From an uncultured Gammaproteobacteria bacterium (lineage in GTDB: Bacteria; Patescibacteriota; Microgenomatia; Daviesbacterales; UBA10151): DNA of 64,000 bases. Under the pieces are notes generated by a model. The model saw only the letters and a list, made by a program, of their open reading frames with translations, was not told the DNA's origin and did not search any database. The position numbers and the translations under genes were made by a program. Numbering within the stretch: position 1 is the stretch's first letter; each line of letters begins with the position of its first letter. This document shows positions 3,643 through 44,644 of this stretch, in pieces. Location of the stretch: positions 61,992 through 125,991 of the forward strand of contig CAZKCV010000001.1 in assembly GCA_964551605.1 (NCBI GenBank). The letters are read 5' to 3'.

Positions 3643-4089
3643 ATGACTGCAACCGCACATGCATTAATAGGAGGAGCTATTGCCGCTTCCACTCCGGGAA
3701 ATCCTGCTTTGGGTTTAACACTGTCCGCGCTTTCCCATCCTCTGGTTGATTTAATCCCTCACTGGGATTTCGGGATCGGCTGGCAAAAGAAAGGTAAAAC
3801 TGTGCTCCTGCTACAATCTCTGGCTGATTTGGCTATCGGAGTCGGTCTAGCTTTTTTGATTTTTGGAAATTCCACCAATTATCTCTATCTGGCTCTTTGT
3901 ATATTAATGGCTGAATCCTTTGACATCCTGCAAATGCCTTATTTATTATTTAATTGGAAATTTCTGCCTTTTTCAGCCTTTTATCATTTCGGACACAGTA
4001 CCAATGGCCGGGCCAAAATGCCCTGGGGAATTGTCACACAGGCAGCCACTGTTTCAGGCCTTATTTTAGCCTTGCGGGTTCTGCACTAA
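3643..4089 (+). CDS. small His-rich integral membrane protein, possibly YdjM/DUF457-like metal-dependent hydrolase
   Basis: MTATAHALIGGAIAAS N-terminus, several TM segments, conserved-looking His residues. The family assignment is from memory only. Confidence 0.4.
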   Translation: MTATAHALIGGAIAASTPGNPALGLTLSALSHPLVDLIPHWDFGIGWQKKGKTVLLLQSLADLAIGVGLAFLIFGNSTNYLYLALCILMAESFDILQMPYLLFNWKFLPFSAFYHFGHSTNGRAKMPWGIVTQAATVSGLILALRVLH

Positions 4090-4956
4090 CTCATTTAAAT
4101 ACTCGGTAAATTCTTCACCTATCTCCGGATGCTTCTTGGCTAAATCAACCACGGTTTTCATGTACTCCAATTTATTGCCGGTATCATAATATTTGGCATT
4201 TTTCACCTCCACCGTATAAAGAGGAATGCCTTCATCACGCAGTAAGTTTATGGCATCAACCAGCCAGATTTCCCCGCCTTGACCCGGTTGGACCCTTTTG
4301 AGGGCCGAAAAAATTTCCGGAGGCAGGATATAAGCACCATGGGTAGCCAGGTTAGAAGGAGCTTTATCAGGATCCGGTTTTTCTACTATTGACTTAATCT
4401 TGTAGACATTGCCTTCTACCGGCTCAAGGTCTGCTATGCCGTAGCTGCTTAGATCCTCTTTTTTCTCAATTCTAACCCCGGAAATAACCATCCCCCCGTA
4501 TTTTTCATAGACATCAATCATTTGTTTTAACCGGGGCGGCTCTGCCAAAATAAACTCATCCCCCCAAACCACCGCAAAAGGCTCATCTTCAATGACCGAT
4601 TCCCCGGAAAGAACAGGTGTACCGTTGCCATAGGAACCTTTTTGGCGGATGTATATAAAATTAGCCATCTCCGAGATGTTTTTTAACTGCTCCAGGATCT
4701 TCTCTTTATTGCCGTTTACCAGGTTTTGAACCAAATCCTCGCTTGGCATATCAAAATGATCTTCAATGGCCCGCTTGGTGGCACCGGTCACCATAATAAT
4801 ATTGTCTATCCCGGAGCCGACTATTTCTTCCACCACATATTGGATAACAGGTTTATCCACAATGGGCAACATCTCCTTGGGCATGGCCTTGGTTTGGGGG
4901 AGGAAACGGGTTCCAAACCCGGCGGCAGGTATTAAAGCCTTAGTTATTTTTTTCAT
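4066..4956 (-). CDS. galU: UTP--glucose-1-phosphate uridylyltransferase
   Basis: KALIPAAGFGTRFLPQTKAMPKEMLPIVDKPVIQYVVEE is the classic GalU N-terminus. Length 296 aa. Confidence 0.9.
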   Translation of the reverse strand: MKKITKALIPAAGFGTRFLPQTKAMPKEMLPIVDKPVIQYVVEEIVGSGIDNIIMVTGATKRAIEDHFDMPSEDLVQNLVNGNKEKILEQLKNISEMANFIYIRQKGSYGNGTPVLSGESVIEDEPFAVVWGDEFILAEPPRLKQMIDVYEKYGGMVISGVRIEKKEDLSSYGIADLEPVEGNVYKIKSIVEKPDPDKAPSNLATHGAYILPPEIFSALKRVQPGQGGEIWLVDAINLLRDEGIPLYTVEVKNAKYYDTGNKLEYMKTVVDLAKKHPEIGEEFTEYLNELVQNPQG

Positions 4957-5516
4957 TTGACTCTTTCGATATATTGTCCTGACCTTGTATCTACTTTAAC
5001 ACGTTCTCCAACTTTCATAAACATAGGGACTTTAACTACTAAACCATTATCTAAAATGGCTTCCTTAAACACATTGGATACCGTATTACCCTTCTCTCCC
5101 GGTCCGGTTTCCGTGATTGTGTAGTTTAAACTTAAGGGAAGTTCTAAGCCTAATGCTTCACCGTCTGAAACAATCAAAATTACTTCCAAACCGTCTTTTA
5201 AATATTTGGCTTGGGTTAATAAAACGCTTGCAGGAATGGTAAATTGTTCAAAGCTTACAGGATCCATAAAGTTAAAACTGTCTCCCTCCCGGTAAAGAAA
5301 CTGGGCTTTTTTCTTTTCTACACTAGCCTCATCTACCCTGGCTCCGGTAATAAAAGATTTCTCAACCACTGAGCCGGTCCGGATACTTCTGACTTTAACC
5401 TTGATATTGCCGGAACCCCGGCCGGTTTTAACATGTTCATATGTCAAAACCAAAAGGATATCTTTCCCTTCCTTAAAGAAAGTACCATTCTTAAGATCAG
5501 TTACATTCAATGCCAT
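4953..5516 (-). CDS. efp: elongation factor P (start moved to the internal MALNVTDLKNG; Arg at the modified-loop tip)
   Basis: Homology runs over the full length (KOW-like N-domain + two OB domains), 187 aa from the ATG at 5516. Loop reads HVKTGRGSG where E. coli has KPGKG. Confidence 0.9.
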   Translation of the reverse strand: MALNVTDLKNGTFFKEGKDILLVLTYEHVKTGRGSGNIKVKVRSIRTGSVVEKSFITGARVDEASVEKKKAQFLYREGDSFNFMDPVSFEQFTIPASVLLTQAKYLKDGLEVILIVSDGEALGLELPLSLNYTITETGPGEKGNTVSNVFKEAILDNGLVVKVPMFMKVGERVKVDTRSGQYIERVK

Positions 5517-34958: not shown

Positions 34959-36947
34959 ATGAAAACCTGCCTTAAATTTTTATCATTCATCCTTGTTTTC
35001 ATTACCCTACTGCCTTTTGGTCCTACTTTTGCACAATCTTCCCAAGCTTTACCACTCTCTTCTGAATATGTCCCCGGAGAATTAATTGTTAAGTTTAAGA
35101 CTACTACTCCGGCAGAAAATGAATTGGTCAGCAAATATCAGCTTCGTTCTGCCAGAAAAGTCTTGCGTGAGCTGGAACGGGCAGAGAAACACCAAGACAG
35201 AATCCAGGTTTTTAGGAATAAGGGGTTAGATAAGCTTTTTGTAGCTTCCACTGAACAAGAAAAGCTGCCCGAGCTTTTACAAAAGCTGAAAAACGACCCG
35301 GAAGTGGAATATGCCGAACCCAATTTTATTCTCCGTACCAGCCAGCTGCCCAATGACCCTCTTTTTGTTAATTTATGGGGACTTCATAATAGCGGACAGA
35401 CCGGTGGCACTACTGATGCGGATATTGACGCACCTGAGGCATGGGATACTCCATACGGCAGCAGTATGACAGTGGGAATAATTGATACCGGCATTGACTA
35501 TAACCACGAAGACTTAAGAGCCAATATGTGGACCAATAGCCCGGAAGCTGCCGGACAGCCGGGAGTTGATGACGACGGCAATGGTTTTATTGATGATGTT
35601 TATGGCTATGACTTTATTAATAATGATCCTGACCCGATGGATGACCACGGCCATGGTACTCATGTGGCAGGTACTATAGCTGCAGTGGGCGAAAACGGGG
35701 TAGGTGTAGCCGGTATAAATTACCACGGTAAAGTAGCGGCCCTGAAATTCCTAAGCGGCAGCGGCTCCGGCACTACTGACGGCGCTATTCGGGCAATTCA
35801 ATATGCCACCATGATGGGCTTTAAGATCACTAACAATAGTTGGGGCGGCGGAAGTTTTTCCCAATCTTTATACAATGCTATCTCTGCTGCAAATGATGCC
35901 GGGAATTTATTTGTAGCAGCAGCGGGTAATAACGGCAGAAATACGGATACTACTCCCTCCTATCCTGCCTCTTATAATCTGCCTAATATAATCTCCGTTG
36001 CCGCCACGGATAAATATGACAACCTGGCCTCTTTCTCAAACTTTGGCACCAGCTCTGTTGATTTAGGAGCACCCGGAGTCAGTATTTTCTCTACCGTACC
36101 AAAAGGCAGCTGCGGCAGCTGTGACCCCAGTGGTTACCGAGTCATGAGCGGCACTTCTATGGCCAGCCCGCATGCAGCCGGCGCGGCAGCCTACCTTTGG
36201 GGAGTGTCAAATTCCTTGTCTTACCTTCAGATCAAAGATAAACTGCTTACCTCATCCGATCCGACAGCAGCTTTATCAGGTAAAACCTTAAGTGGGAAAA
36301 GATTAAACTTAAAAAATACCATGCCAACTCCTGTCCCTACGCCAACCCCGGAACCGACGCCGGTGCCGATTCCTGAGCCTACCCCTACCCCGACTCCGAC
36401 ACCTGTCCCTGTCCCTGTCCCATCTCCTACCCCGGCCCCAACCCCGGTACCTGGTACACCTCTGACGGCTAATGCCGGAGCAGACAGGACGGAATTCTTA
36501 AATACTTCAGTTACTTTCCAGGGAATAGCCGGCGGAGGCCAAAGCCCTTACACCTATAACTGGAATTTTGGTGACGGCACCTCCGGAACCGGACAAACAA
36601 TAAATAAAACTTACAGCAAAACCGGCACTTTCACAGTCACTTTAACAGTCAAAGATGCAGGTTTAGCCAGTGTTCAGGATACAGCCGTAGTTAAGATAAT
36701 TAAAGATACTGTCAAAATCACTTCTGCCACCTACTCCACTTCCAAAAGACAACTAATAGTAAAGGCCACCAGTACCACCAACGGCAAAGCCACCTTAACT
36801 GTCAGAAATTACGGGACTATGACTTATAATTCTGGTTCTTTGTCTTATGAGCTGACTAAAGATGGGGTATTTACCAAACCAAGTTATGTAATAATTTCCT
36901 CTACTTCCGGGAGCCAAGTCCTCCGGACAGTCGCCCGTATCCCTTAA
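34959..36947 (+). CDS. secreted subtilisin-like serine protease (S8) with Pro/Thr linker and C-terminal PKD domain
   Basis: Signal peptide. Catalytic D (VGIIDTGID), H (HGTHVAGTIAA) and S (GTSMASPHAAGAAA). PTPVPTPTPEPTPVP linker. PKD-like YTYNWNFGDGTSG. Confidence 0.9.
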   Translation: MKTCLKFLSFILVFITLLPFGPTFAQSSQALPLSSEYVPGELIVKFKTTTPAENELVSKYQLRSARKVLRELERAEKHQDRIQVFRNKGLDKLFVASTEQEKLPELLQKLKNDPEVEYAEPNFILRTSQLPNDPLFVNLWGLHNSGQTGGTTDADIDAPEAWDTPYGSSMTVGIIDTGIDYNHEDLRANMWTNSPEAAGQPGVDDDGNGFIDDVYGYDFINNDPDPMDDHGHGTHVAGTIAAVGENGVGVAGINYHGKVAALKFLSGSGSGTTDGAIRAIQYATMMGFKITNNSWGGGSFSQSLYNAISAANDAGNLFVAAAGNNGRNTDTTPSYPASYNLPNIISVAATDKYDNLASFSNFGTSSVDLGAPGVSIFSTVPKGSCGSCDPSGYRVMSGTSMASPHAAGAAAYLWGVSNSLSYLQIKDKLLTSSDPTAALSGKTLSGKRLNLKNTMPTPVPTPTPEPTPVPIPEPTPTPTPTPVPVPVPSPTPAPTPVPGTPLTANAGADRTEFLNTSVTFQGIAGGGQSPYTYNWNFGDGTSGTGQTINKTYSKTGTFTVTLTVKDAGLASVQDTAVVKIIKDTVKITSATYSTSKRQLIVKATSTTNGKATLTVRNYGTMTYNSGSLSYELTKDGVFTKPSYVIISSTSGSQVLRTVARIP

Positions 36948-39550
36948 GTTAGGTGCGTTAAGAACTTTCCGGATTTTAGGCTGTAATCTTTCAAGATGTC
37001 ATAAATTAAGAGGATAAGTAACACCGGGCCCAATAATACCCCCCAGCTATAAATATCCAAAGGCGCTGTCTCAAAGATTAGTCGGGCACTGGTATAGAGA
37101 ATAATCAAGGTGGCAATTATAGAAATAAATGAGGCAAAAAATAAGTATTTATTAACAAATGGCGACCTGGATAAACTCTTTTTCCTAAAGGATCGGAAAT
37201 TAAAAGCACTGGCAATTTCCAAAAGTATTAACCCGACCAAAGCGGCTGTCCTTGAAATCTCCAAACTTTGACTTAAGATATTGAAGAAAACAAAGTAAAT
37301 AGACAAAGTAAATAAAGCCATTAAAGCTCCATTGAATAAAACGAGTAAAATCAGTTCTCTGCTTAAAATTCTGGTATCCTTCCGGGGTTTTTCCTGCATG
37401 ATATCTTTTGAAGCCGGATTAAATCCTAACGTGACAGCCGGCAGGTTATCCGTTATCAAATTCATAAATAAGATATGCAAGGCCAAAAGCAGCGGCACTG
37501 CCCAACCCAAAAGCGGTGACAGCAAAACGCCGAAAAACAGGATTGCCAGTTCTGCCAAGTTACAAGACAGTTGGTAACTGACAAATTTGCGGATATTGTT
37601 AAAAATGGTCCTGCCTTCCTTGACTGCTTCGACAATGGTAGCAAAATTGTCGTCCTTAAGCGTTAGATCAGCCACCGAGCGGGAAACATCCGTACCGCTT
37701 TTGCCCATGGCCACTCCGATATGGGCTTCCTTTAGCGCCGGGGCATCATTAACCCCGTCCCCTGTCATGGTCACTACCTCTCCCTTTTGCTTTAATAATT
37801 TAACTATCCTTAATTTGTGTTCCGGGTTAACACGCGCAAAGACAACAGTTTTATCTAAAGCTGCTGATAATTCCTGATCGCTTAGACCATTCAGCTCGGC
37901 ACCGTCCAGGACCTGTCCTTCCAGACCGATTTGGGATGCAATTGATTGAGCTGTCTGCTTGTTATCTCCTGTAATCATCACCACCTTAATATTGGCCTTT
38001 TTGCAAAGCCCGATAGCCTCCGGCACTTCCTCCCGAGGCGGATCTTCCATACCCGCTAACCCCAGGAAAATCAGATCATTTTCATCCAACTTCTCGCTGC
38101 TTACCTTCTTATAGGCAAAAGCTAAAGTACGTAAAGCTTCGGAATTCATTTGATGGTTTGTTTTCAGGATTATTTGTTTTTCTTCACCGGTCAGTTTACA
38201 TTTTTCTAAAATTACTTCCGGTGCCCCTTTGCTGAAAACGAAAAGGTCCTTGTCTTTAATCAACACAGACATCATTTTTCTTTCGGAATTAAACGGCATC
38301 TCCTCCAGTCTTTTTTCCTTTAAGTCTTCCTGAAAAAAATTTGCCTTTGCAGCCAGTATCAACAAGGCTCCCTCTGTCGGACTACCGCTGACCTTATATT
38401 CCATGTCCTCACCGGTCCGTTCAATCCTGCCGTCATTGCAGGATAATGCAGTTGTTAAAAGCAATTTTAAGTTTTCATCCAGCAAGGGGTCCACTTGTTT
38501 GCCACCCTTTAGAAAATCACCTTTTCCTTCAAACCCTGACCCGCTGACATCTAAGAAGCCTCCATTTACGAATACCCTTTTTACCGTCATTTCTCCTTTC
38601 GTTAAGGTACCTGTTTTATCGGAACAAATAATGGTAGTTTCTCCTAAAGTCTCAATAATAGACATCCGGTTTACAATCGCATTCTTTTTCGCCATATTGG
38701 CTACCCCGGCTGCCAGGGTGGCAACCAAAACTACCGGAAAGCCTTCCGGGAAAGCCGAGACGGAAAGTGCGATCACCAAGATTAGGATATTTGTAATTAC
38801 TTCAGGTGTTATAGCCTCCGCTTTGGTAAACATTAAAAACCCTGTCAGGACTGAAACAATTACGGCAATGGCGGCCATGTATTTTGAAATCTGGTTAACT
38901 TTATTTTGCAGTGGCAGTTCCTTTTCCGCAGTGGAAATCATGCCGGCAATCTGACCAAACTTCGTTCTCATTCCCGTCTGCATTATCTTTGCCACAGCCC
39001 GGCCATTAACAATAAATGTTCCCATAAAAAGCATATTCTCTTCATTTACATTTTTTTCTGATTTTGCCTCTTCCTTTTTTATTTCTTTTGACTCACCGGT
39101 TAGGACTGATTCATTTATTCTCAATTCACTTTCTTCTAAGATAAGGCAATCTGCCGGGATCTTTTCCCCATTTCCTAATATCACCACATCCCCTGGAACC
39201 AGCTCTTTTGAAAGAATTTCTTGCCTCTTTCCGTCCCGGATGACAATCGATACCGGCATGATCATCTTTTTTAAGGAACTAATAGCTTTTTCCGCCCGGT
39301 ATTCCTGAATAAAGCCAACCACGACAACCATAAAAATAACTGCGGAAATGGTATAACCGGTCACCGGTTTGCCTACAAAAAAAGAAATTAACGTTGCTAC
39401 AATCAGCAGATAGATAATAAAATTCTTCTTTACCTGCCGAAAAAGAATTGTTAAAAATGAAATACGATGAAGATCCCTAATCTCATTAGACCCATACTCT
39501 TTGAGTCTCTCGACAGCCTCCGTATCTGTAATACCGGTTAATTCAGTCAT
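36944..39550 (-). CDS. P-type cation-transporting ATPase (P2-type, Ca2+/Mg2+-like)
   Basis: DKTGTLT phosphorylation site, MITGDN, GDGVNDAPALKEAHIGVAMG. 10 TM helices. Confidence 0.9.
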   Translation of the reverse strand: MTELTGITDTEAVERLKEYGSNEIRDLHRISFLTILFRQVKKNFIIYLLIVATLISFFVGKPVTGYTISAVIFMVVVVGFIQEYRAEKAISSLKKMIMPVSIVIRDGKRQEILSKELVPGDVVILGNGEKIPADCLILEESELRINESVLTGESKEIKKEEAKSEKNVNEENMLFMGTFIVNGRAVAKIMQTGMRTKFGQIAGMISTAEKELPLQNKVNQISKYMAAIAVIVSVLTGFLMFTKAEAITPEVITNILILVIALSVSAFPEGFPVVLVATLAAGVANMAKKNAIVNRMSIIETLGETTIICSDKTGTLTKGEMTVKRVFVNGGFLDVSGSGFEGKGDFLKGGKQVDPLLDENLKLLLTTALSCNDGRIERTGEDMEYKVSGSPTEGALLILAAKANFFQEDLKEKRLEEMPFNSERKMMSVLIKDKDLFVFSKGAPEVILEKCKLTGEEKQIILKTNHQMNSEALRTLAFAYKKVSSEKLDENDLIFLGLAGMEDPPREEVPEAIGLCKKANIKVVMITGDNKQTAQSIASQIGLEGQVLDGAELNGLSDQELSAALDKTVVFARVNPEHKLRIVKLLKQKGEVVTMTGDGVNDAPALKEAHIGVAMGKSGTDVSRSVADLTLKDDNFATIVEAVKEGRTIFNNIRKFVSYQLSCNLAELAILFFGVLLSPLLGWAVPLLLALHILFMNLITDNLPAVTLGFNPASKDIMQEKPRKDTRILSRELILLVLFNGALMALFTLSIYFVFFNILSQSLEISRTAALVGLILLEIASAFNFRSFRKKSLSRSPFVNKYLFFASFISIIATLIILYTSARLIFETAPLDIYSWGVLLGPVLLILLIYDILKDYSLKSGKFLTHLT

Positions 39551-39608: not shown

Positions 39609-40520
39609 CTAAGGATACTTCATTCTAGCCTCCTCGGGGCTCAAAACTTCCCTTATAGAATGATCGTCATTAATTACTGCCACCTGCTGGGTATGGACAC
39701 TGTCATGGGCTAAATTTTTAATCTGGATGGCCGGGTGAACAGACCGCCAGAAATAATAGACAAATTCTTTAATTTGCCCTTTGCTCATCCCCTTTCCCTG
39801 TGCCCGCAAAACTTCCTCGGCCTGGTCTCTCCATTTCAAAGATATCCGGTAGTCAGGCACATATAATACATTCATAAAATCGATCATCTCCCACAGGGGT
39901 AAGTATTCATCTAATTTCCGATTAATATCCTGGGCAAACTGGATGTGTTCAGGTGTATCCAAAGCCGGCAAACCGCTTTCAAAAACAGACTCATCCTCCA
40001 CCCTTCTGGCACCCAGCATCCACCCGTCATAAAGAATAAAATCCGGTTTTTTTGAAATGGTTTTCCATCCTACCCGATCCCCATCTCCCTGCTGTGCTCC
40101 CTTATCATATATGGGAATTTTCACTTCCATGCCGTCTGTCATTGTCTGCAAATCTTCTAAGTTTTGTATAGCCAACGGGATATCGTGGGTAGCACCCCTT
40201 CGTATAAATCTGGGGTCTTTTTCCCTTAATCTATTGAGTTCCTGATGGGTAACATAGTGGTCATCAATAGACAAAGAAATTGAGGAGTAACCAAAATGCG
40301 AAAGCAGAATTTCCATAACCTCACCCTGCGTGGTTTTACCCGCCCCCTGAATGGCTGAAACCCCTACAATTAGACCATTTGAACTAACCCTTTGCCGTTT
40401 GATAGCGATTAATTTCTCAACATATGGATAGTAATATAGGTCCAAATCACGTTCTAAACCCTCCCGTGATATTTCCGGCCGTTTGGCAAAAAAAGCATCA
40501 AAATTAATACCTTCAATCAT
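39609..40520 (-). CDS. P-loop kinase of the uridine-kinase/PRK superfamily resembling D-glycerate 3-kinase (GLYK/TDA10-like)
   Basis: Walker A GVSAIQGAGKTTQ. RRGATHDIPL and IPIYDKGAQQGDGDR blocks recall the GLYK RG-PGTHD / YDKS...GDR motifs (from memory). Confidence 0.5.
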   Translation of the reverse strand: MIEGINFDAFFAKRPEISREGLERDLDLYYYPYVEKLIAIKRQRVSSNGLIVGVSAIQGAGKTTQGEVMEILLSHFGYSSISLSIDDHYVTHQELNRLREKDPRFIRRGATHDIPLAIQNLEDLQTMTDGMEVKIPIYDKGAQQGDGDRVGWKTISKKPDFILYDGWMLGARRVEDESVFESGLPALDTPEHIQFAQDINRKLDEYLPLWEMIDFMNVLYVPDYRISLKWRDQAEEVLRAQGKGMSKGQIKEFVYYFWRSVHPAIQIKNLAHDSVHTQQVAVINDDHSIREVLSPEEARMKYP

Positions 40521-41293
40521 AGTTTTTGATTAATTTGGCTGGCAACTTTTTTACTCAGCACTAATACCTTGTTTAAGGGAATATTCAATTCTGTTATAAA
40601 TTCTCCGGCCACCATTTTATTTAAAGGATAGGTTAAAACCAGTTTTATCTTTGGCAGCATTTCTTTGTGGCTACCGATAATAATAAAATGAATACCCTTC
40701 CCTTTTATAAATTCCTTTGTTTTTTCCACAATCAGCTTAAGATGACTTCGTAAATCATCTTCTATATGGCGGAAGATTTTGTCATCTCTGCCATAATCTA
40801 TTTTTTTTGCTTTTACCTTTTGGGGGACAAGACCTACAAAAATATCCTTGTGTTCTTCAATTTCCCCTAAATGAACCGTGAAAAACCTGGCTTTTGACCG
40901 GTCTGCCAAGAGTACCAGGTATTTGCGGTATGTGTTTAAGGCTTTCTCTATCGGTTGCAAATATGGTGAATGCGAAATCACAGCTTTAGGGGCAAGGAAA
41001 AATTCAAACCTTAACACTTCCCATAAATTCTTGCCTGCAGAAAAGAATGCGGTTGTCCGGATATTTGACCGGTCAAATGATTCATGTAAATACTTTTCAA
41101 TACGGGCAATATCTTTTTGCCAAAACCTTTGCTCCTCTTCTGATAAATTCTGGTGGATTAAAGAATGTAACTGGGAAAGACAAAAGGAAAGTTGCGGCGG
41201 CCTTTTTTCAGCACAACCTAAGGAAACTGTCAAAATGGGAAAGGTTGCGTTTCTATAAGCCTTAAGTCTTGCTACCACATTAACTTCTTCCAT
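40517..41293 (-). CDS. hypothetical protein, possibly eRF1/Pelota-like (baeRF-type) fold
   Basis: No GGQ motif. Weak architectural resemblance only. Start moved to the ATG at 41293, preceded by GAGGA. 4-bp overlap with the kinase gene and 1-bp gap to hpf. Confidence 0.3.
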   Translation of the reverse strand: MEEVNVVARLKAYRNATFPILTVSLGCAEKRPPQLSFCLSQLHSLIHQNLSEEEQRFWQKDIARIEKYLHESFDRSNIRTTAFFSAGKNLWEVLRFEFFLAPKAVISHSPYLQPIEKALNTYRKYLVLLADRSKARFFTVHLGEIEEHKDIFVGLVPQKVKAKKIDYGRDDKIFRHIEDDLRSHLKLIVEKTKEFIKGKGIHFIIIGSHKEMLPKIKLVLTYPLNKMVAGEFITELNIPLNKVLVLSKKVASQINQKL

Positions 41294-41294
41294 A

Positions 41295-41702
41295 TTACCA
41301 TCCTCTGACAGAACTGTGATCCGGATATTCGCTCTCATCGGGAAAATGCAAGTCTTTATATTTTTCCAGTTTCTCAAAAAGACGTTCAAAACCTAAATTA
41401 ATGCACTCATCAATGGTCATCCCTTTAAAATGTGCATAAAAACTGTTTTTATTAAGCCGGAAAGCCATTGAGCCTTCAAAAAAGGCAAGCTCGGGTTTCA
41501 GATCAGCATAACTTCTATGCGGGTGGGGGTGGACTCTCGGGGGGTGGTATTTGTCAATATTTTTTTTGATAGTTAACCTAAGTACAATCAAGTCGCTTGC
41601 TACATTAGGAAGTGCCTGCGTAATCTTTGTTAAATGCTTATTTATGTGGTTACTTAACTTATCTGAAACCCGGCAATTTTTAGCAGTCAGTTGAAAAATC
41701 AT
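41295..41702 (-). CDS. hpf: ribosome hibernation promoting factor (HPF/YfiA family) with His/Pro-rich insertion
   Basis: MIFQLTAKNCRVSDKLSNHINKHLTKI...VLRLTIKK and FEGSMAFRL...FYAHFKGMTIDECINLGFERLFEKLEKYKD match the HPF beta-alpha-beta-beta-beta-alpha fold. Insertion YHPPRVHPHPH. Confidence 0.65.
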   Translation of the reverse strand: MIFQLTAKNCRVSDKLSNHINKHLTKITQALPNVASDLIVLRLTIKKNIDKYHPPRVHPHPHRSYADLKPELAFFEGSMAFRLNKNSFYAHFKGMTIDECINLGFERLFEKLEKYKDLHFPDESEYPDHSSVRGW

Positions 41703-41807
41703 AAATTCACTAATTTCATTCTAAAATCAGACAATCATAAATCCTTGAGAAAACAGTAAGAGGATGGCAAGGTTTTTACCTAAACCTTACATTTTTCATA
41801 TTTTATT

Positions 41808-44031: not shown

Positions 44032-44644
44032 AATGGATGTTTGGACAATTATTACTATTTTAATTTTTGCTTCTTTTACCTGGCCACTAATAAAAAATCG
44101 GTTAGACCTTTATAAAAGGCTTTCCATTATTAAGCAAATTGAGTCAGAACGCAAATCCCGGGTCATCACTATGATTCACCGCCAAGAAACCTTAAGTTTG
44201 TTAGGCATACAAGATGCAGTCTTGGGTTCGCTGGATCCGATTATCACCAGTGCCGGAGGCAGTTTTTATCCGGCCGTCTCGATTTTAAGTGCCTTATCAA
44301 TACCAAACAGAAACAGGGATGATACTACTTTGATTTTAGGAGATGTTGCTCAAAAGGCCATGAAACAAATCAAAGAAATCGTCTATTCTCTCTTATTAAG
44401 ACACCAAAGCACAAAAAGGGCTTCCCGGATGGCCAGCTTTTTGGTCAGCGGAGAGCGCACTCATGATTTTCCTCTAACCTTTGAAAATATTAAAGGCCTG
44501 GGGCTATCTGTTTCCGATTATCTACCAAAAGCCGTCAGTCAATTAATGGCTCTTTATCCTCAACCTTCTATGAAACAACAGTCTGTGGAATTTATACCTA
44601 CGCCATACTTTCCGCAGATTCCAAAGAGGGGTAAACAGATGTGA
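44021..44644 (+). CDS. hypothetical membrane-anchored protein
   Basis: N-terminal TM helix. Weak resemblance to membrane-bound ClpP-fold (SDH-type) proteins; not confident. Confidence 0.35.
   Translation: MESRMDVWTIITILIFASFTWPLIKNRLDLYKRLSIIKQIESERKSRVITMIHRQETLSLLGIQDAVLGSLDPIITSAGGSFYPAVSILSALSIPNRNRDDTTLILGDVAQKAMKQIKEIVYSLLLRHQSTKRASRMASFLVSGERTHDFPLTFENIKGLGLSVSDYLPKAVSQLMALYPQPSMKQQSVEFIPTPYFPQIPKRGKQM

What the first reader, a model, noticed from the sequence alone, without database searches (positions are those of the whole stretch)
39609..41702. Tight operon hpf / eRF1-like(?) protein / glycerate-kinase-like P-loop kinase
An HPF/YfiA-family protein with an unusual His/Pro-rich insertion is followed after 1 bp by a 259-aa protein of unknown family (good SD; no GGQ; overall pattern vaguely reminiscent of Pelota/eRF1-like bacterial proteins). 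That protein overlaps by 4 bp a P-loop kinase whose blocks (GAGKTT, RRGATHD, IPIYDK...GDGDR) resemble D-glycerate 3-kinase/TDA10-type kinases. Co-transcription of a hibernation factor with a possible ribosome-rescue-fold protein and a small-molecule kinase hints at a stress or dormancy module not described as such.
Basis: inference. Interest (0 to 1): 0.5.

Follow-up and report, generated by a model that had tools for sequence, protein, structure and literature searches.

The report
HPF plus mini-Balon hibernation gene pair
This is a known type of two-gene ribosome "hibernation" cassette (an HPF/RaiA-like protein plus a shortened Balon/eRF1-like protein) in a Daviesbacteria-like ultrasmall bacterium, and the glycerate-kinase gene behind it is a metabolic neighbour that sits there only in a few close relatives.

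Summary

- **Gene 1 (135 aa)** has the HPF/YfiA fold, with a 27-aa insert and a conserved C-terminal tail.
- **Gene 2 (258 aa)** is Pfam baeRF_family10. Its AlphaFold model matches the ribosome-bound hibernation factor Balon best, then aRF1/eRF1. It has only the N and middle domains. It lacks the C-terminal, EF-Tu-binding domain, and it lacks the GGW(S/Q) loop motif of full-length family-10 proteins.
- **Gene 3 (303 aa)** belongs to the D-glycerate 3-kinase (GLYK/TDA10) family.

The HPF–baeRF pairing was already published (Burroughs & Aravind 2019; Balon paper 2024). Here an HPF-like gene lies upstream in 19 of 39 related loci.

The kinase is not part of that module. It is absent from 39 of 39 baeRF loci, and only 1 of 32 kinase loci has a baeRF upstream. 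The trio recurs only in three close relatives. Four-base overlaps are common in this compact genome (9 of 48 gene pairs).

The "undescribed trio module" reading is not supported. This is a new member, and a compact variant, of a known system. Interest is modest.

The parts
41756..41790 (-). Conserved non-coding block (GTAAGGTTTAGGTAAAAACCTTGCCATCCTCTTAC), 54-88 nt upstream of the HPF-like start, in the divergent intergenic region shared with a UPF0047/YjbQ gene. It may be a promoter/operator or a leader element. Its function is unknown.
   Evidence: The block is kept in 7 of 9 aligned upstream regions from relatives whose HPF-like proteins are only 50-72% identical. It is not repeated elsewhere in the window above chance. 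Only a weak 6-pair hairpin was predicted, with essentially no covariation. No Rfam family matched.
41295..41702 (-). HPF/RaiA/YfiA-fold protein, 135 aa. Its layout is beta-alpha-beta, then a 27-aa His/Pro-rich insert (residues 48-74), then beta-beta-alpha, then a conserved but predicted-disordered C-terminal tail (KDLHFPDESEYPDHSSVR).
   Evidence: Pfam Ribosomal_S30AE scores 22.6 bits, just under the 23.7 cutoff. The profile of 25 homologues hits solved HPF structures at E 0.008-0.07. The AF2 model has pLDDT 75. The top 39 Foldseek PDB hits are all HPF/YfiA/RaiA, including 8rd8_D, the RaiA bound together with Balon. The tail motif is shared by all baeRF-linked HPF-likes, while the insert varies from 0 to 38 aa.
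40517..41293 (-). Compact two-domain Balon-like / baeRF-1 family 10 protein, 258 aa. It has an N domain (about residues 1-108) and an RNase-H-fold middle domain (about 110-258). There is no C-terminal eRF1_3/Zn-ribbon domain and no GGQ or GGW motif. A conserved VPQ (156-158) sits at the base of the loop.
   Evidence: Pfam PF18854 scores 58 bits against a cutoff of 27. The AF2 model has pLDDT 86.5. Foldseek best hits are Balon Msmeg1130 8v9l/8v9j (E 2e-12 and 3e-12, TMq 0.69-0.72) and P. urativorans Balon 8rd8, followed by aRF1/eRF1. Profile alignments end at residue 236 of 375 in Msmeg1130 and 255 of 416 in aRF1. Relatives of about 380 aa carry an extra eRF1_3 + CxxC..CPxC domain and a GGW(S/Q) loop.
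39609..40520 (-). D-glycerate 3-kinase (GLYK/TDA10) family P-loop kinase, 303 aa. It is probably co-transcribed here through the ATGA overlap, but it is not part of the conserved hibernation pair.
   Evidence: The family profile hits PDB 7xpc GLYK at E 3e-32, 6ckg at 1e-23, and 1odf at 2e-17, a yeast hypothetical protein I take to be YGR205W/TDA10. Homologues are 67-83% identical across Microgenomates, and sources name them glycerate kinase. The kinase is absent from 39 of 39 baeRF loci, and a baeRF lies upstream in 1 of 32 kinase loci. Its recurrent downstream neighbour elsewhere is a PfkB sugar kinase.
36944..39550 (-). P-type cation-transporting ATPase, 868 aa, 58 bp downstream on the same strand. 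It may belong to the same transcription unit, and is listed as context only.
   Evidence: Pfam finds E1-E2_ATPase, Cation_ATPase_N/C and Hydrolase domains. No terminator-like site lies between the kinase and this gene. The same ATPase (82% identical) follows the trio in L048, with an HSP20 gene in between.

Best explanation
The conserved functional unit is a two-gene ribosome-hibernation cassette in a Daviesbacteria-like member of the Patescibacteria.

The HPF/RaiA-fold protein most likely sits in the 30S decoding and tRNA-binding cleft. The compact Balon-like protein (baeRF-1 family 10, N and middle domains only) most likely occupies the A site and reaches toward the peptidyl-transferase centre with its flexible loop. 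It would act as a non-catalytic plug. Together they would silence and protect idle ribosomes during starvation or stress, as shown experimentally for Balon + RaiA.

Because the Balon C-terminal domain is missing, delivery or stabilisation by EF-Tu is unlikely in this variant.

The third gene is a housekeeping D-glycerate 3-kinase-family enzyme (glycerate to 3-phosphoglycerate, by family assignment). It was placed behind the pair in one narrow sub-clade of a very compact genome. It is probably co-transcribed there but is not mechanistically part of the module.

Shown here: the folds, the family assignments, the domain loss, the motif loss and the synteny statistics. Inferred: ribosome binding, the non-catalytic mode of action, independence from EF-Tu and the kinase substrate.
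For: Middle protein:
- Pfam baeRF_family10, E 1.4e-15.
- The AF2 model (pLDDT 86.5) matches ribosome-bound Balon structures first (8v9l, 8v9j, 8rd8; E 2e-12 to 2e-11; TMq 0.65-0.72), ahead of aRF1/eRF1 and Pelota.
- The family profile finds Msmeg1130 Balon as the best PDB sequence hit, E 3e-4.

HPF-like protein:
- The model shows the beta-alpha-beta-beta-beta-alpha fold, and all top 39 PDB hits are HPF/YfiA/RaiA.

Pairing:
- An HPF-like gene lies immediately upstream in 19 of 39 loci with enough flank, and in 17 of 29 two-domain forms. The two ORFs frequently overlap or abut.
- Literature agrees: a conserved baeRF-1/HPF neighbourhood (PMC6514570); Balon and RaiA bind the same ribosome, and Balon genes are most often adjacent to raiA (PMC10901736).

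Non-catalytic reading:
- There is no GGQ.
- Full-length family-10 relatives have K(Q/K)GGW(S/Q) at the loop tip, where the compact forms have variable residues (KKID in the window).
- The loop has low pLDDT, 54-60.

Neighbours elsewhere fit the stress and repair contexts reported for Balon: HSP20, PCMT and Archease-RtcB.

Kinase as bystander:
- Kinase present in 0 of 39 baeRF loci; baeRF upstream in 1 of 32 kinase loci.
- The gene downstream of the baeRF differs from locus to locus: cupin, archease, UPF0047, DUF7670, MscL, SDH protease.
- The kinase usually precedes a PfkB kinase.
- In this window 9 of 48 same-strand gene pairs overlap by exactly 4 bp.
Against: - There is no experimental evidence for any Patescibacteria member of either family.
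- The HPF-like protein is just below Pfam's cutoff (22.6 against 23.7 bits).
- The compact protein lacks Balon's C domain. I found no literal HP motif, and it scores far below NCBIfam's Balon-family cutoff (18.8 against 330 bits). It may therefore bind or act differently from Balon.
- Burroughs & Aravind singled out family 10 as possibly catalytic because of a conserved glutamine. The compact forms do keep a nearly invariant Gln (Q158).
- The kinase linkage with its 4-bp overlap persists in relatives whose baeRF proteins have diverged to about 60% identity. This is more persistence than a purely accidental junction would suggest.
- Saccharibacteria-type homologues have no HPF-like neighbour.
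Confidence: 0.7

Rival explanations
1. The family-10 baeRF protein is an alternative, catalytically active peptidyl-tRNA hydrolase. It would act as a release or rescue factor that frees nascent chains from stalled ribosomes before the HPF-like protein locks them.
For: [quoted passage not shown] In the compact subfamily V156 and P157 are invariant and Q158 is conserved in at least 90% of sequences. Loop length is nearly constant, varying by 0 to +2 residues.
Against: Q158 aligns with the variable residue in the VP-x-K entry to the loop of full-length family-10 proteins and of aRF1 (VPGK). That is 7 residues before the GGQ position. The GG(W/Q) tip itself is replaced by variable residues. Msmeg1130 Balon, a proven non-catalytic factor, also has PQ at this position. 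The domain that recruits a GTPase is absent.
Confidence: 0.12
2. The three genes form a true functional trio. In this reading the GLYK-type kinase is a regulatory or metabolic arm of a dormancy module. It might phosphorylate one of the two factors or a nucleotide-like signal, or it might couple wake-up to carbon entry at 3-phosphoglycerate.
For: The ATGA overlap between the baeRF gene and the kinase is kept in the window and in three relatives with 60-77% identical baeRF proteins (L046/L050, L048, L049). In L048 an HSP20 gene and the same P-type ATPase follow.
Against: The kinase is present in 0 of 39 species-level baeRF loci, and only 1 of 32 kinase loci has a baeRF upstream. Relatives at a similar distance lack it (L047, L001, L002, L005, L016). 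The kinase is far more conserved (67-87% identity) than its neighbours. It usually sits beside a PfkB sugar kinase. Four-base overlaps are common in this genome among neighbouring genes generally (9 of 48 pairs), including the dienelactone-hydrolase and PGA_cap genes next door.
Confidence: 0.08
3. The middle protein works like Pelota/Dom34. It would recognise empty A sites on stalled ribosomes and promote subunit splitting, rather than long-term hibernation.
For: It has the aeRF1-superfamily fold without a catalytic motif, as Dom34 does. Pelota structures appear among the weaker Foldseek hits at E 6e-5 to 6e-3.
Against: Balon structures score far better than Pelota. The N domain is not the Sm-like barrel of Dom34 (PMC6514570). 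The C domain needed to recruit a GTPase or an ABCE1-type splitting partner is missing. The conserved partner is a hibernation factor, not a GTPase.
Confidence: 0.05

Closest known systems
Balon (P. urativorans AOC03_06830; mycobacterial Msmeg1130/Rv2629), a bacterial aeRF1-like ribosome hibernation factor, usually encoded next to raiA
   Same: It is the best structural match and the best PDB sequence match to the family profile. Neither protein has GGQ or NIKS. Both have a flexible loop in place of GGQ. Both genes are adjacent to an HPF/RaiA-family gene. Stress and repair neighbours (HSP20, RtcB) occur in related loci.
   Different: The window protein is about 110 residues shorter and lacks the whole C-terminal domain that Balon uses to contact EF-Tu. 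There is no literal HP dipeptide in its N domain. It scores 18.8 bits against a cutoff of 330 on NCBIfam's Balon-family model. The Balon survey discarded sequences under 300 aa, so this class was not counted there.
baeRF-1 family 10 (Pfam PF18854; Burroughs & Aravind 2019)
   Same: The middle domain matches the Pfam model well above its cutoff. The conserved HPF neighbourhood is as described for several baeRF-1 families.
   Different: Full-length family-10 proteins (about 360-400 aa) carry an eRF1_3 domain with a CxxC..CPxC zinc ribbon and a K(Q/K)GGW(S/Q) loop. The window protein and its Patescibacteria relatives have lost both. Forms of about 150 aa with the middle domain only also exist.
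HPF / RaiA (YfiA, protein Y) short hibernation factors, Pfam PF02482
   Same: The same beta-alpha-beta-beta-beta-alpha fold, with TM-score up to 0.87 normalised to the target. It is short, with no long-HPF dimerisation domain, and has a C-terminal tail as RaiA/YfiA does.
   Different: It has a 27-aa insert between beta2 and beta3. The His/Pro-rich version is restricted to the Daviesbacteria group, and the insert is 0-38 aa elsewhere. A distinctive conserved tail motif, YK(G/D)xHFxSxSEYxDHxxIR, is shared by the baeRF-linked proteins. The sequence falls just below the Pfam cutoff.
D-glycerate 3-kinase (GLYK, EC 2.7.1.31) and yeast TDA10/YGR205W
   Same: Near full-length homology to solved GLYK structures, with the P-loop and other conserved blocks present.
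   Different: The substrate has not been tested. Some Patescibacteria homologues carry an extra in-frame insert of about 100 aa. Linkage to hibernation genes is confined to a narrow clade.

Membership tests
HPF/RaiA/YfiA (PF02482 Ribosomal_S30AE) | beta-alpha-beta-beta-beta-alpha fold of about 90-100 residues | tested here: met
   AF2 secondary structure is E2-8, H14-30, E39-47, E75-83, E86-94, H97-116. All top 39 Foldseek PDB hits are HPF/YfiA/RaiA/pY.
HPF/RaiA/YfiA (PF02482 Ribosomal_S30AE) | Sequence score above the Pfam or TIGRFAM curated cutoff | tested here: not met
   Pfam gives 22.6 bits against a cutoff of 23.7. TIGR00741 gives 14 against 40.9. The profile of 25 homologues hits solved HPFs at E 0.008-0.07. 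One homologue (P0247) carries a precomputed PF02482 hit and an NCBI HPF/RaiA name. This is a near miss caused by the insert.
HPF/RaiA/YfiA (PF02482 Ribosomal_S30AE) | Binds the 30S decoding/tRNA cleft and inhibits translation | not testable with these tools
   Needs ribosome binding or cryo-EM.
baeRF-1 family 10 (PF18854) | Middle RNase-H-fold domain matching the family model above the gathering score | tested here: met
   58.3 bits against a cutoff of 27.1, residues 110-243. All homologues carry PF18854.
baeRF-1 family 10 (PF18854) | Three-domain aeRF1 architecture (N, M, C/eRF1_3 with zinc ribbon or 2-strand insert) | tested here: not met
   The protein ends at the end of the M domain. Family-10 relatives of about 380 aa have about 115 extra residues with eRF1_3 hits and CxxC..CPxC. 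No split-off C domain is encoded downstream in the window or in 10 related loci.
baeRF-1 family 10 (PF18854) | Conserved glutamine (GG-x-Q-like) at the tip of the catalytic loop | tested here: not met
   Full-length members have K(Q/K)GGW(S/Q). The window has KAKKIDYGRDD, and this stretch is variable across the compact subfamily. The conserved Q158 lies at the loop entry, 7 residues before the position aligned to the GGQ glutamine of aRF1.
Balon hibernation factors | aeRF1-like fold that is closest to Balon structures, without GGQ or NIKS | tested here: met
   Foldseek ranks 1-4 and 6 are Balon/Msmeg1130. No GGQ or NIKS occurs in the sequence.
Balon hibernation factors | C-terminal domain with a beta-loop that contacts EF-Tu | tested here: not met
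   The domain is absent.
Balon hibernation factors | HP motif in the N domain, lasso loop and bL27 trap (as described in PMC10901736) | tested here: inconclusive
   There is no HP dipeptide in residues 1-108. A flexible loop of low pLDDT replaces GGQ. Residue-level equivalence could not be established without coordinates.
Balon hibernation factors | Score above the NCBIfam NF052287 (AOC03_06830 family) cutoff | tested here: not met
   18.8 bits against a cutoff of 330, E 9e-4.
Balon hibernation factors | Gene adjacent to an HPF/RaiA-family gene | tested here: met
   A 1-bp gap in the window. An HPF-like gene lies upstream in 19 of 39 related loci.
Balon hibernation factors | Binds the ribosomal A site under stress, independently of mRNA | not testable with these tools
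   Needs biochemistry or cryo-EM.
D-glycerate 3-kinase (GLYK/TDA10) | P-loop kinase homologous over most of its length to solved GLYK enzymes | tested here: met
   Profile against PDB: 7xpc at E 3e-32 (profile positions 31-262), 6ckg at 1e-23, 1odf at 2e-17. The Walker A motif is GAGKTT.
D-glycerate 3-kinase (GLYK/TDA10) | Phosphorylates D-glycerate to 3-phosphoglycerate | not testable with these tools
   The family name is given by sources. No assay is available.

The most novel reading that the evidence does not exclude
Patescibacteria of the Microgenomates group may use a distinct, EF-Tu-independent form of Balon-type hibernation. A minimal two-domain 'mini-Balon' has lost the EF-Tu-binding domain and the GGW loop. 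It works only together with a co-evolved HPF variant. That variant's conserved C-terminal tail (SEYxDHxxIR) and variable beta2-beta3 insert would supply the contacts that the lost parts provided. In the Daviesbacteria sub-clade, co-transcription with GLYK could additionally tie the module to carbon status.
Probability: 0.3. Interest if true: 0.55.

Novelty: new member of a known kind. Interest (0 to 1): 0.3.

Why it matters
Ribosome hibernation in Patescibacteria is almost unstudied, although a review notes that RaiA is required for growth in a cultivated Saccharibacterium (PMC11665869).

The compact Balon-like proteins found here fall under the 300-aa filter used in the Balon survey. Hibernation machinery in these ultrasmall bacteria may therefore be under-counted.

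A two-domain form without the EF-Tu-binding domain would be a natural test of which parts of Balon are needed for A-site occupancy.

The practical result for the scan is mostly negative. The cassette is a known type, and the kinase does not define a new stress module.

Tried and rejected
- **Single-sequence phmmer of the middle protein against PDB** found nothing meaningful. Only the family profile and the predicted structure revealed Balon.
- **PADLOC defence models:** no hit for any of the three proteins, so a defence-system reading was dropped.
- **Rfam at gathering thresholds** over the whole window found one tRNA only, so no known RNA element lies in the operon leader.
- **Promoter and terminator consensus scans** gave counts no higher than shuffled sequence, with no terminator between the genes. 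The operon inference therefore rests on spacing alone.
- **The conserved upstream block folded as RNA** gave only -3.3 kcal/mol, 6 pairs and no real covariation. An RNA-structure reading is not supported.
- **A split-off C domain encoded downstream** was tested and rejected. Downstream genes in 10 related loci are unrelated: cupin, archease, UPF0047, DUF7670, MscL, SDH protease.
- **The longer 290-aa TTG start** for the middle gene was rejected, because homologues align from the ATG and a GAGGA Shine-Dalgarno sequence precedes it.
- **The idea that Q158 is the GGQ glutamine** was examined and judged unlikely.
- **Correction:** an early hand count of HPF-positive loci (22 of 43) was wrong. The script gave 19.
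Full report
**Observation**

- A 135-aa ORF lies at 41702..41295.
- A 258-aa ORF has its ATG (41293) 1 bp after the first gene's TAA stop, preceded by GAGGA 7 nt upstream.
- A 303-aa ORF has its ATG overlapping the second gene's stop as ATGA (40520-40517).

The middle protein has no GGQ. All three have many homologues: 57, 129 and 374 at E<=1e-3. Where a source gives a name, nearly all are from Candidatus Daviesbacteria, Curtissbacteria, Levybacteria and other Patescibacteria. The window therefore most likely comes from a Daviesbacteria-like genome.

**Gene 1**

Pfam Ribosomal_S30AE scores 22.6 bits, just under its 23.7 cutoff. A profile of 25 homologues hits solved HPF structures at E 0.008-0.07. 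The match splits into residues 1-43 and 80-118, on either side of an insert.

The AlphaFold model (pLDDT 75) has the order beta-alpha-beta, a 27-residue insert, beta-beta-alpha, then a disordered tail. Its top 39 Foldseek PDB hits are all HPF/YfiA/RaiA/pY. They include 8rd8_D, the RaiA that sits on the ribosome together with Balon.

I aligned the HPF-like proteins encoded next to baeRF genes in 16 other loci.
- The insert is variable: 0-38 aa, and His/Pro-rich only in the Daviesbacteria group.
- A C-terminal tail motif, YK(G/D)xHFxSxSEYxDHxxIR, is shared by all of them and is absent from E. coli HPF.

**Gene 2**

- Pfam baeRF_family10 matches residues 110-243 at E 1.4e-15.
- NCBIfam's Balon-family model gives a faint hit, far below its cutoff.
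- The AlphaFold model (pLDDT 86.5, pTM 0.74) matches ribosome-bound Balon first: Msmeg1130 8v9l and 8v9j at E 2e-12 and 3e-12 (TMq 0.69-0.72), and P. urativorans 8rd8. Archaeal and eukaryotic RF1 follow, and Pelota is much weaker.

The family-profile alignments stop at residue 236 of 375 in Msmeg1130 and 255 of 416 in aRF1. An exhaustive profile search of 1.84 billion representatives shows two classes.
- The nearest roughly 50 clusters are 250-275 aa.
- The next tier is about 360-400 aa and aligns only over its first 260 or so residues.

Those longer proteins are also Pfam family 10. They add an eRF1_3 domain with a CxxC..CPxC zinc ribbon, and they have a K(Q/K)GGW(S/Q) motif at the loop tip.

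The window protein is therefore a two-domain (N + M) derivative that has lost both the C domain and the GG motif. Its loop tip (KAKKIDYGRDD) is variable within the subfamily and has low pLDDT.

The nearly invariant VPQ (156-158) lies at the loop entry. It aligns with VPGK of aRF1 and APQE of Msmeg1130, not with GGQ. I read this as a non-catalytic A-site blocker. The catalytic alternative that Burroughs & Aravind raised for family 10 is not excluded.

**Gene 3**

The family profile hits PDB 7xpc (D-glycerate-3-kinase, E 3e-32), 6ckg (D-glycerate 3-kinase) and 1odf, a yeast hypothetical protein that I take to be YGR205W/TDA10. Homologues are 67-83% identical across Microgenomates, and sources call them glycerate kinase. 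The substrate is inferred.

**Synteny**

I anchored on the baeRF protein and fetched 43 loci from species-representative genomes. Among the 39 with at least 600 nt upstream, an HPF-like gene lies on the same strand upstream in 19. It is directly adjacent in all but one, where a PCMT gene intervenes. That is 17 of 29 two-domain forms and 2 of 10 middle-domain-only forms. The two ORFs frequently overlap or abut.

The kinase is found in none of the 39 loci with at least 1 kb downstream. The downstream gene differs from locus to locus: cupin, archease followed by RtcB, UPF0047, DUF7670, MscL, SDH-type protease.

I then anchored on the kinase and fetched 55 metagenome loci. Only 1 of the 32 with enough upstream sequence has the pair. 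In four of the ten kinase-flanking genes I scanned, the gene directly downstream is a PfkB-family sugar kinase.

The trio, with the same 4-bp overlap, does recur in three close relatives.
- L046/L050: baeRF 77% identical.
- L048: a Daviesbacteria MAG, with HSP20 and the same ATPase following.
- L049.

Other relatives at about 57-65% identity lack it.

In the window itself about 91% of bases are coding. Nine of 48 same-strand neighbour pairs overlap by exactly 4 bp, including the dienelactone-hydrolase and PGA_cap genes next door. The overlap therefore argues for co-transcription, not for shared function.

**Comparison with what is known**

Burroughs & Aravind (2019, PMC6514570) defined the bacterial aeRF-1 clade. 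They reported its conserved operonic link to HPF. They described one family that keeps the N domain but loses the C domain, and families reduced to the middle domain. They proposed non-catalytic A-site blockers acting together with HPF.

Helena-Bueno et al. (2024, PMC10901736) showed experimentally that Balon, a bacterial aeRF1 homologue, is a hibernation factor that binds with RaiA and EF-Tu. They reported that Balon genes are most frequently adjacent to raiA and often near Hsp20, RtcB and other stress genes. Their survey removed sequences under 300 aa.

The cassette here is thus a member of a described system. What is less explicitly described is the Patescibacteria-wide compact form together with its tail-bearing HPF partner.

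**Mechanism proposed**

Under starvation or stress the pair is expressed. The HPF-like protein occupies the 30S decoding/tRNA cleft. The mini-Balon occupies the A site, with its loop near the peptidyl-transferase centre. The ribosomes are silenced and protected.

- Shown: the folds, the domain and motif loss, and the conserved pairing.
- Inferred from the Balon and RaiA structures: the binding sites and the non-catalytic action.
- Inferred from the absence of the C domain: independence from EF-Tu.

In this sub-clade the kinase, and possibly the P-type ATPase 58 bp downstream, are likely read from the same transcript. No terminator-like site was found, but that scan is weak evidence.

**Verdict**

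The novelty claim for a three-gene dormancy module is not supported. This is a new member, and a compact variant, of a known kind. Interest is about 0.3.

Noticed in passing
window 41756-41790 (minus strand); also L046 4552-4576, L048 1080-1103, L005 5488-5513: A block of about 35 nt (GTAAG-N6-GTAAAA-N3-CTTGCCATCCTCTTAC) upstream of the HPF-like gene is conserved in seven relatives, although the divergent upstream gene differs among them. It could be an operator/promoter or a leader. GTAAG and CTTAC are reverse complements of each other, and GTAA recurs 11 nt apart.
   Followed up: partly
L075-L090 (e.g. L076 3968-5206, L090 about 3983-5203): A subset of Patescibacteria GLYK-type kinase genes carries an in-frame insert of about 100 aa directly after the GDGDR block, giving proteins of about 405-412 aa. 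The nature of the inserted domain is unknown.
   Followed up: partly
L028, L029, L031, L033, L035-L039 (baeRF ORFs of about 139-177 aa); P0100-P0120: Patescibacteria also encode family-10 proteins with the middle domain only (about 150 aa). Two of ten such loci still have the tail-bearing HPF-like gene directly upstream.
   Followed up: partly
L011 5583-8690: A four-gene same-strand cluster: HPF-like, two-domain baeRF, Archease, RtcB. It links the hibernation pair to an RNA-repair ligase system, as reported for some Balon loci.
   Followed up: partly
L024 4902-6735; L014 5506-5910; L048 3380-3790: Protein-repair and chaperone genes sit in or beside the pair in other genomes. A PCMT (isoaspartyl methyltransferase) gene lies between the HPF-like and baeRF genes in L024. 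HSP20 lies upstream in L014, and after the kinase in L048.
   Followed up: partly
P0397, P0404 (representative proteins of 459 and 481 aa); the related Acidobacteriota loci L042 and L043 (ORFs of 467 and 454 aa) were not scanned: Some three-domain family-10 baeRF proteins carry an N-terminal zf-HC2 (anti-sigma-factor type) zinc finger. This suggests a fusion between a ribosome-binding factor and a sigma-factor regulator.
   Followed up: no
window 44033-44644 (+): This 203-aa ORF matches only positions 149-277 of the 286-position ClpP-like SDH-type protease model, so it looks like a truncated or degenerate copy. A full-length SDH protease lies directly downstream of the baeRF gene in L016.
   Followed up: no
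L001, L002, L004, L011, L014 and others (record titles): Many loci whose proteins are 50-69% identical to Daviesbacteria/Microgenomates proteins come from MAG records titled 'uncultured Gammaproteobacteria bacterium'. Those titles look like placeholder or wrong taxonomy.
   Followed up: no
L019-L023, L026, L027 (Saccharibacteria/Saccharimonadia loci): Two-domain baeRF homologues in Saccharibacteria (34-39% identity) have no HPF-like neighbour. In the ones I scanned (L019, L021, L027), neighbours include a PheRS alpha-like gene upstream and a DUF5666 protein or unassigned small ORFs downstream.
   Followed up: partly
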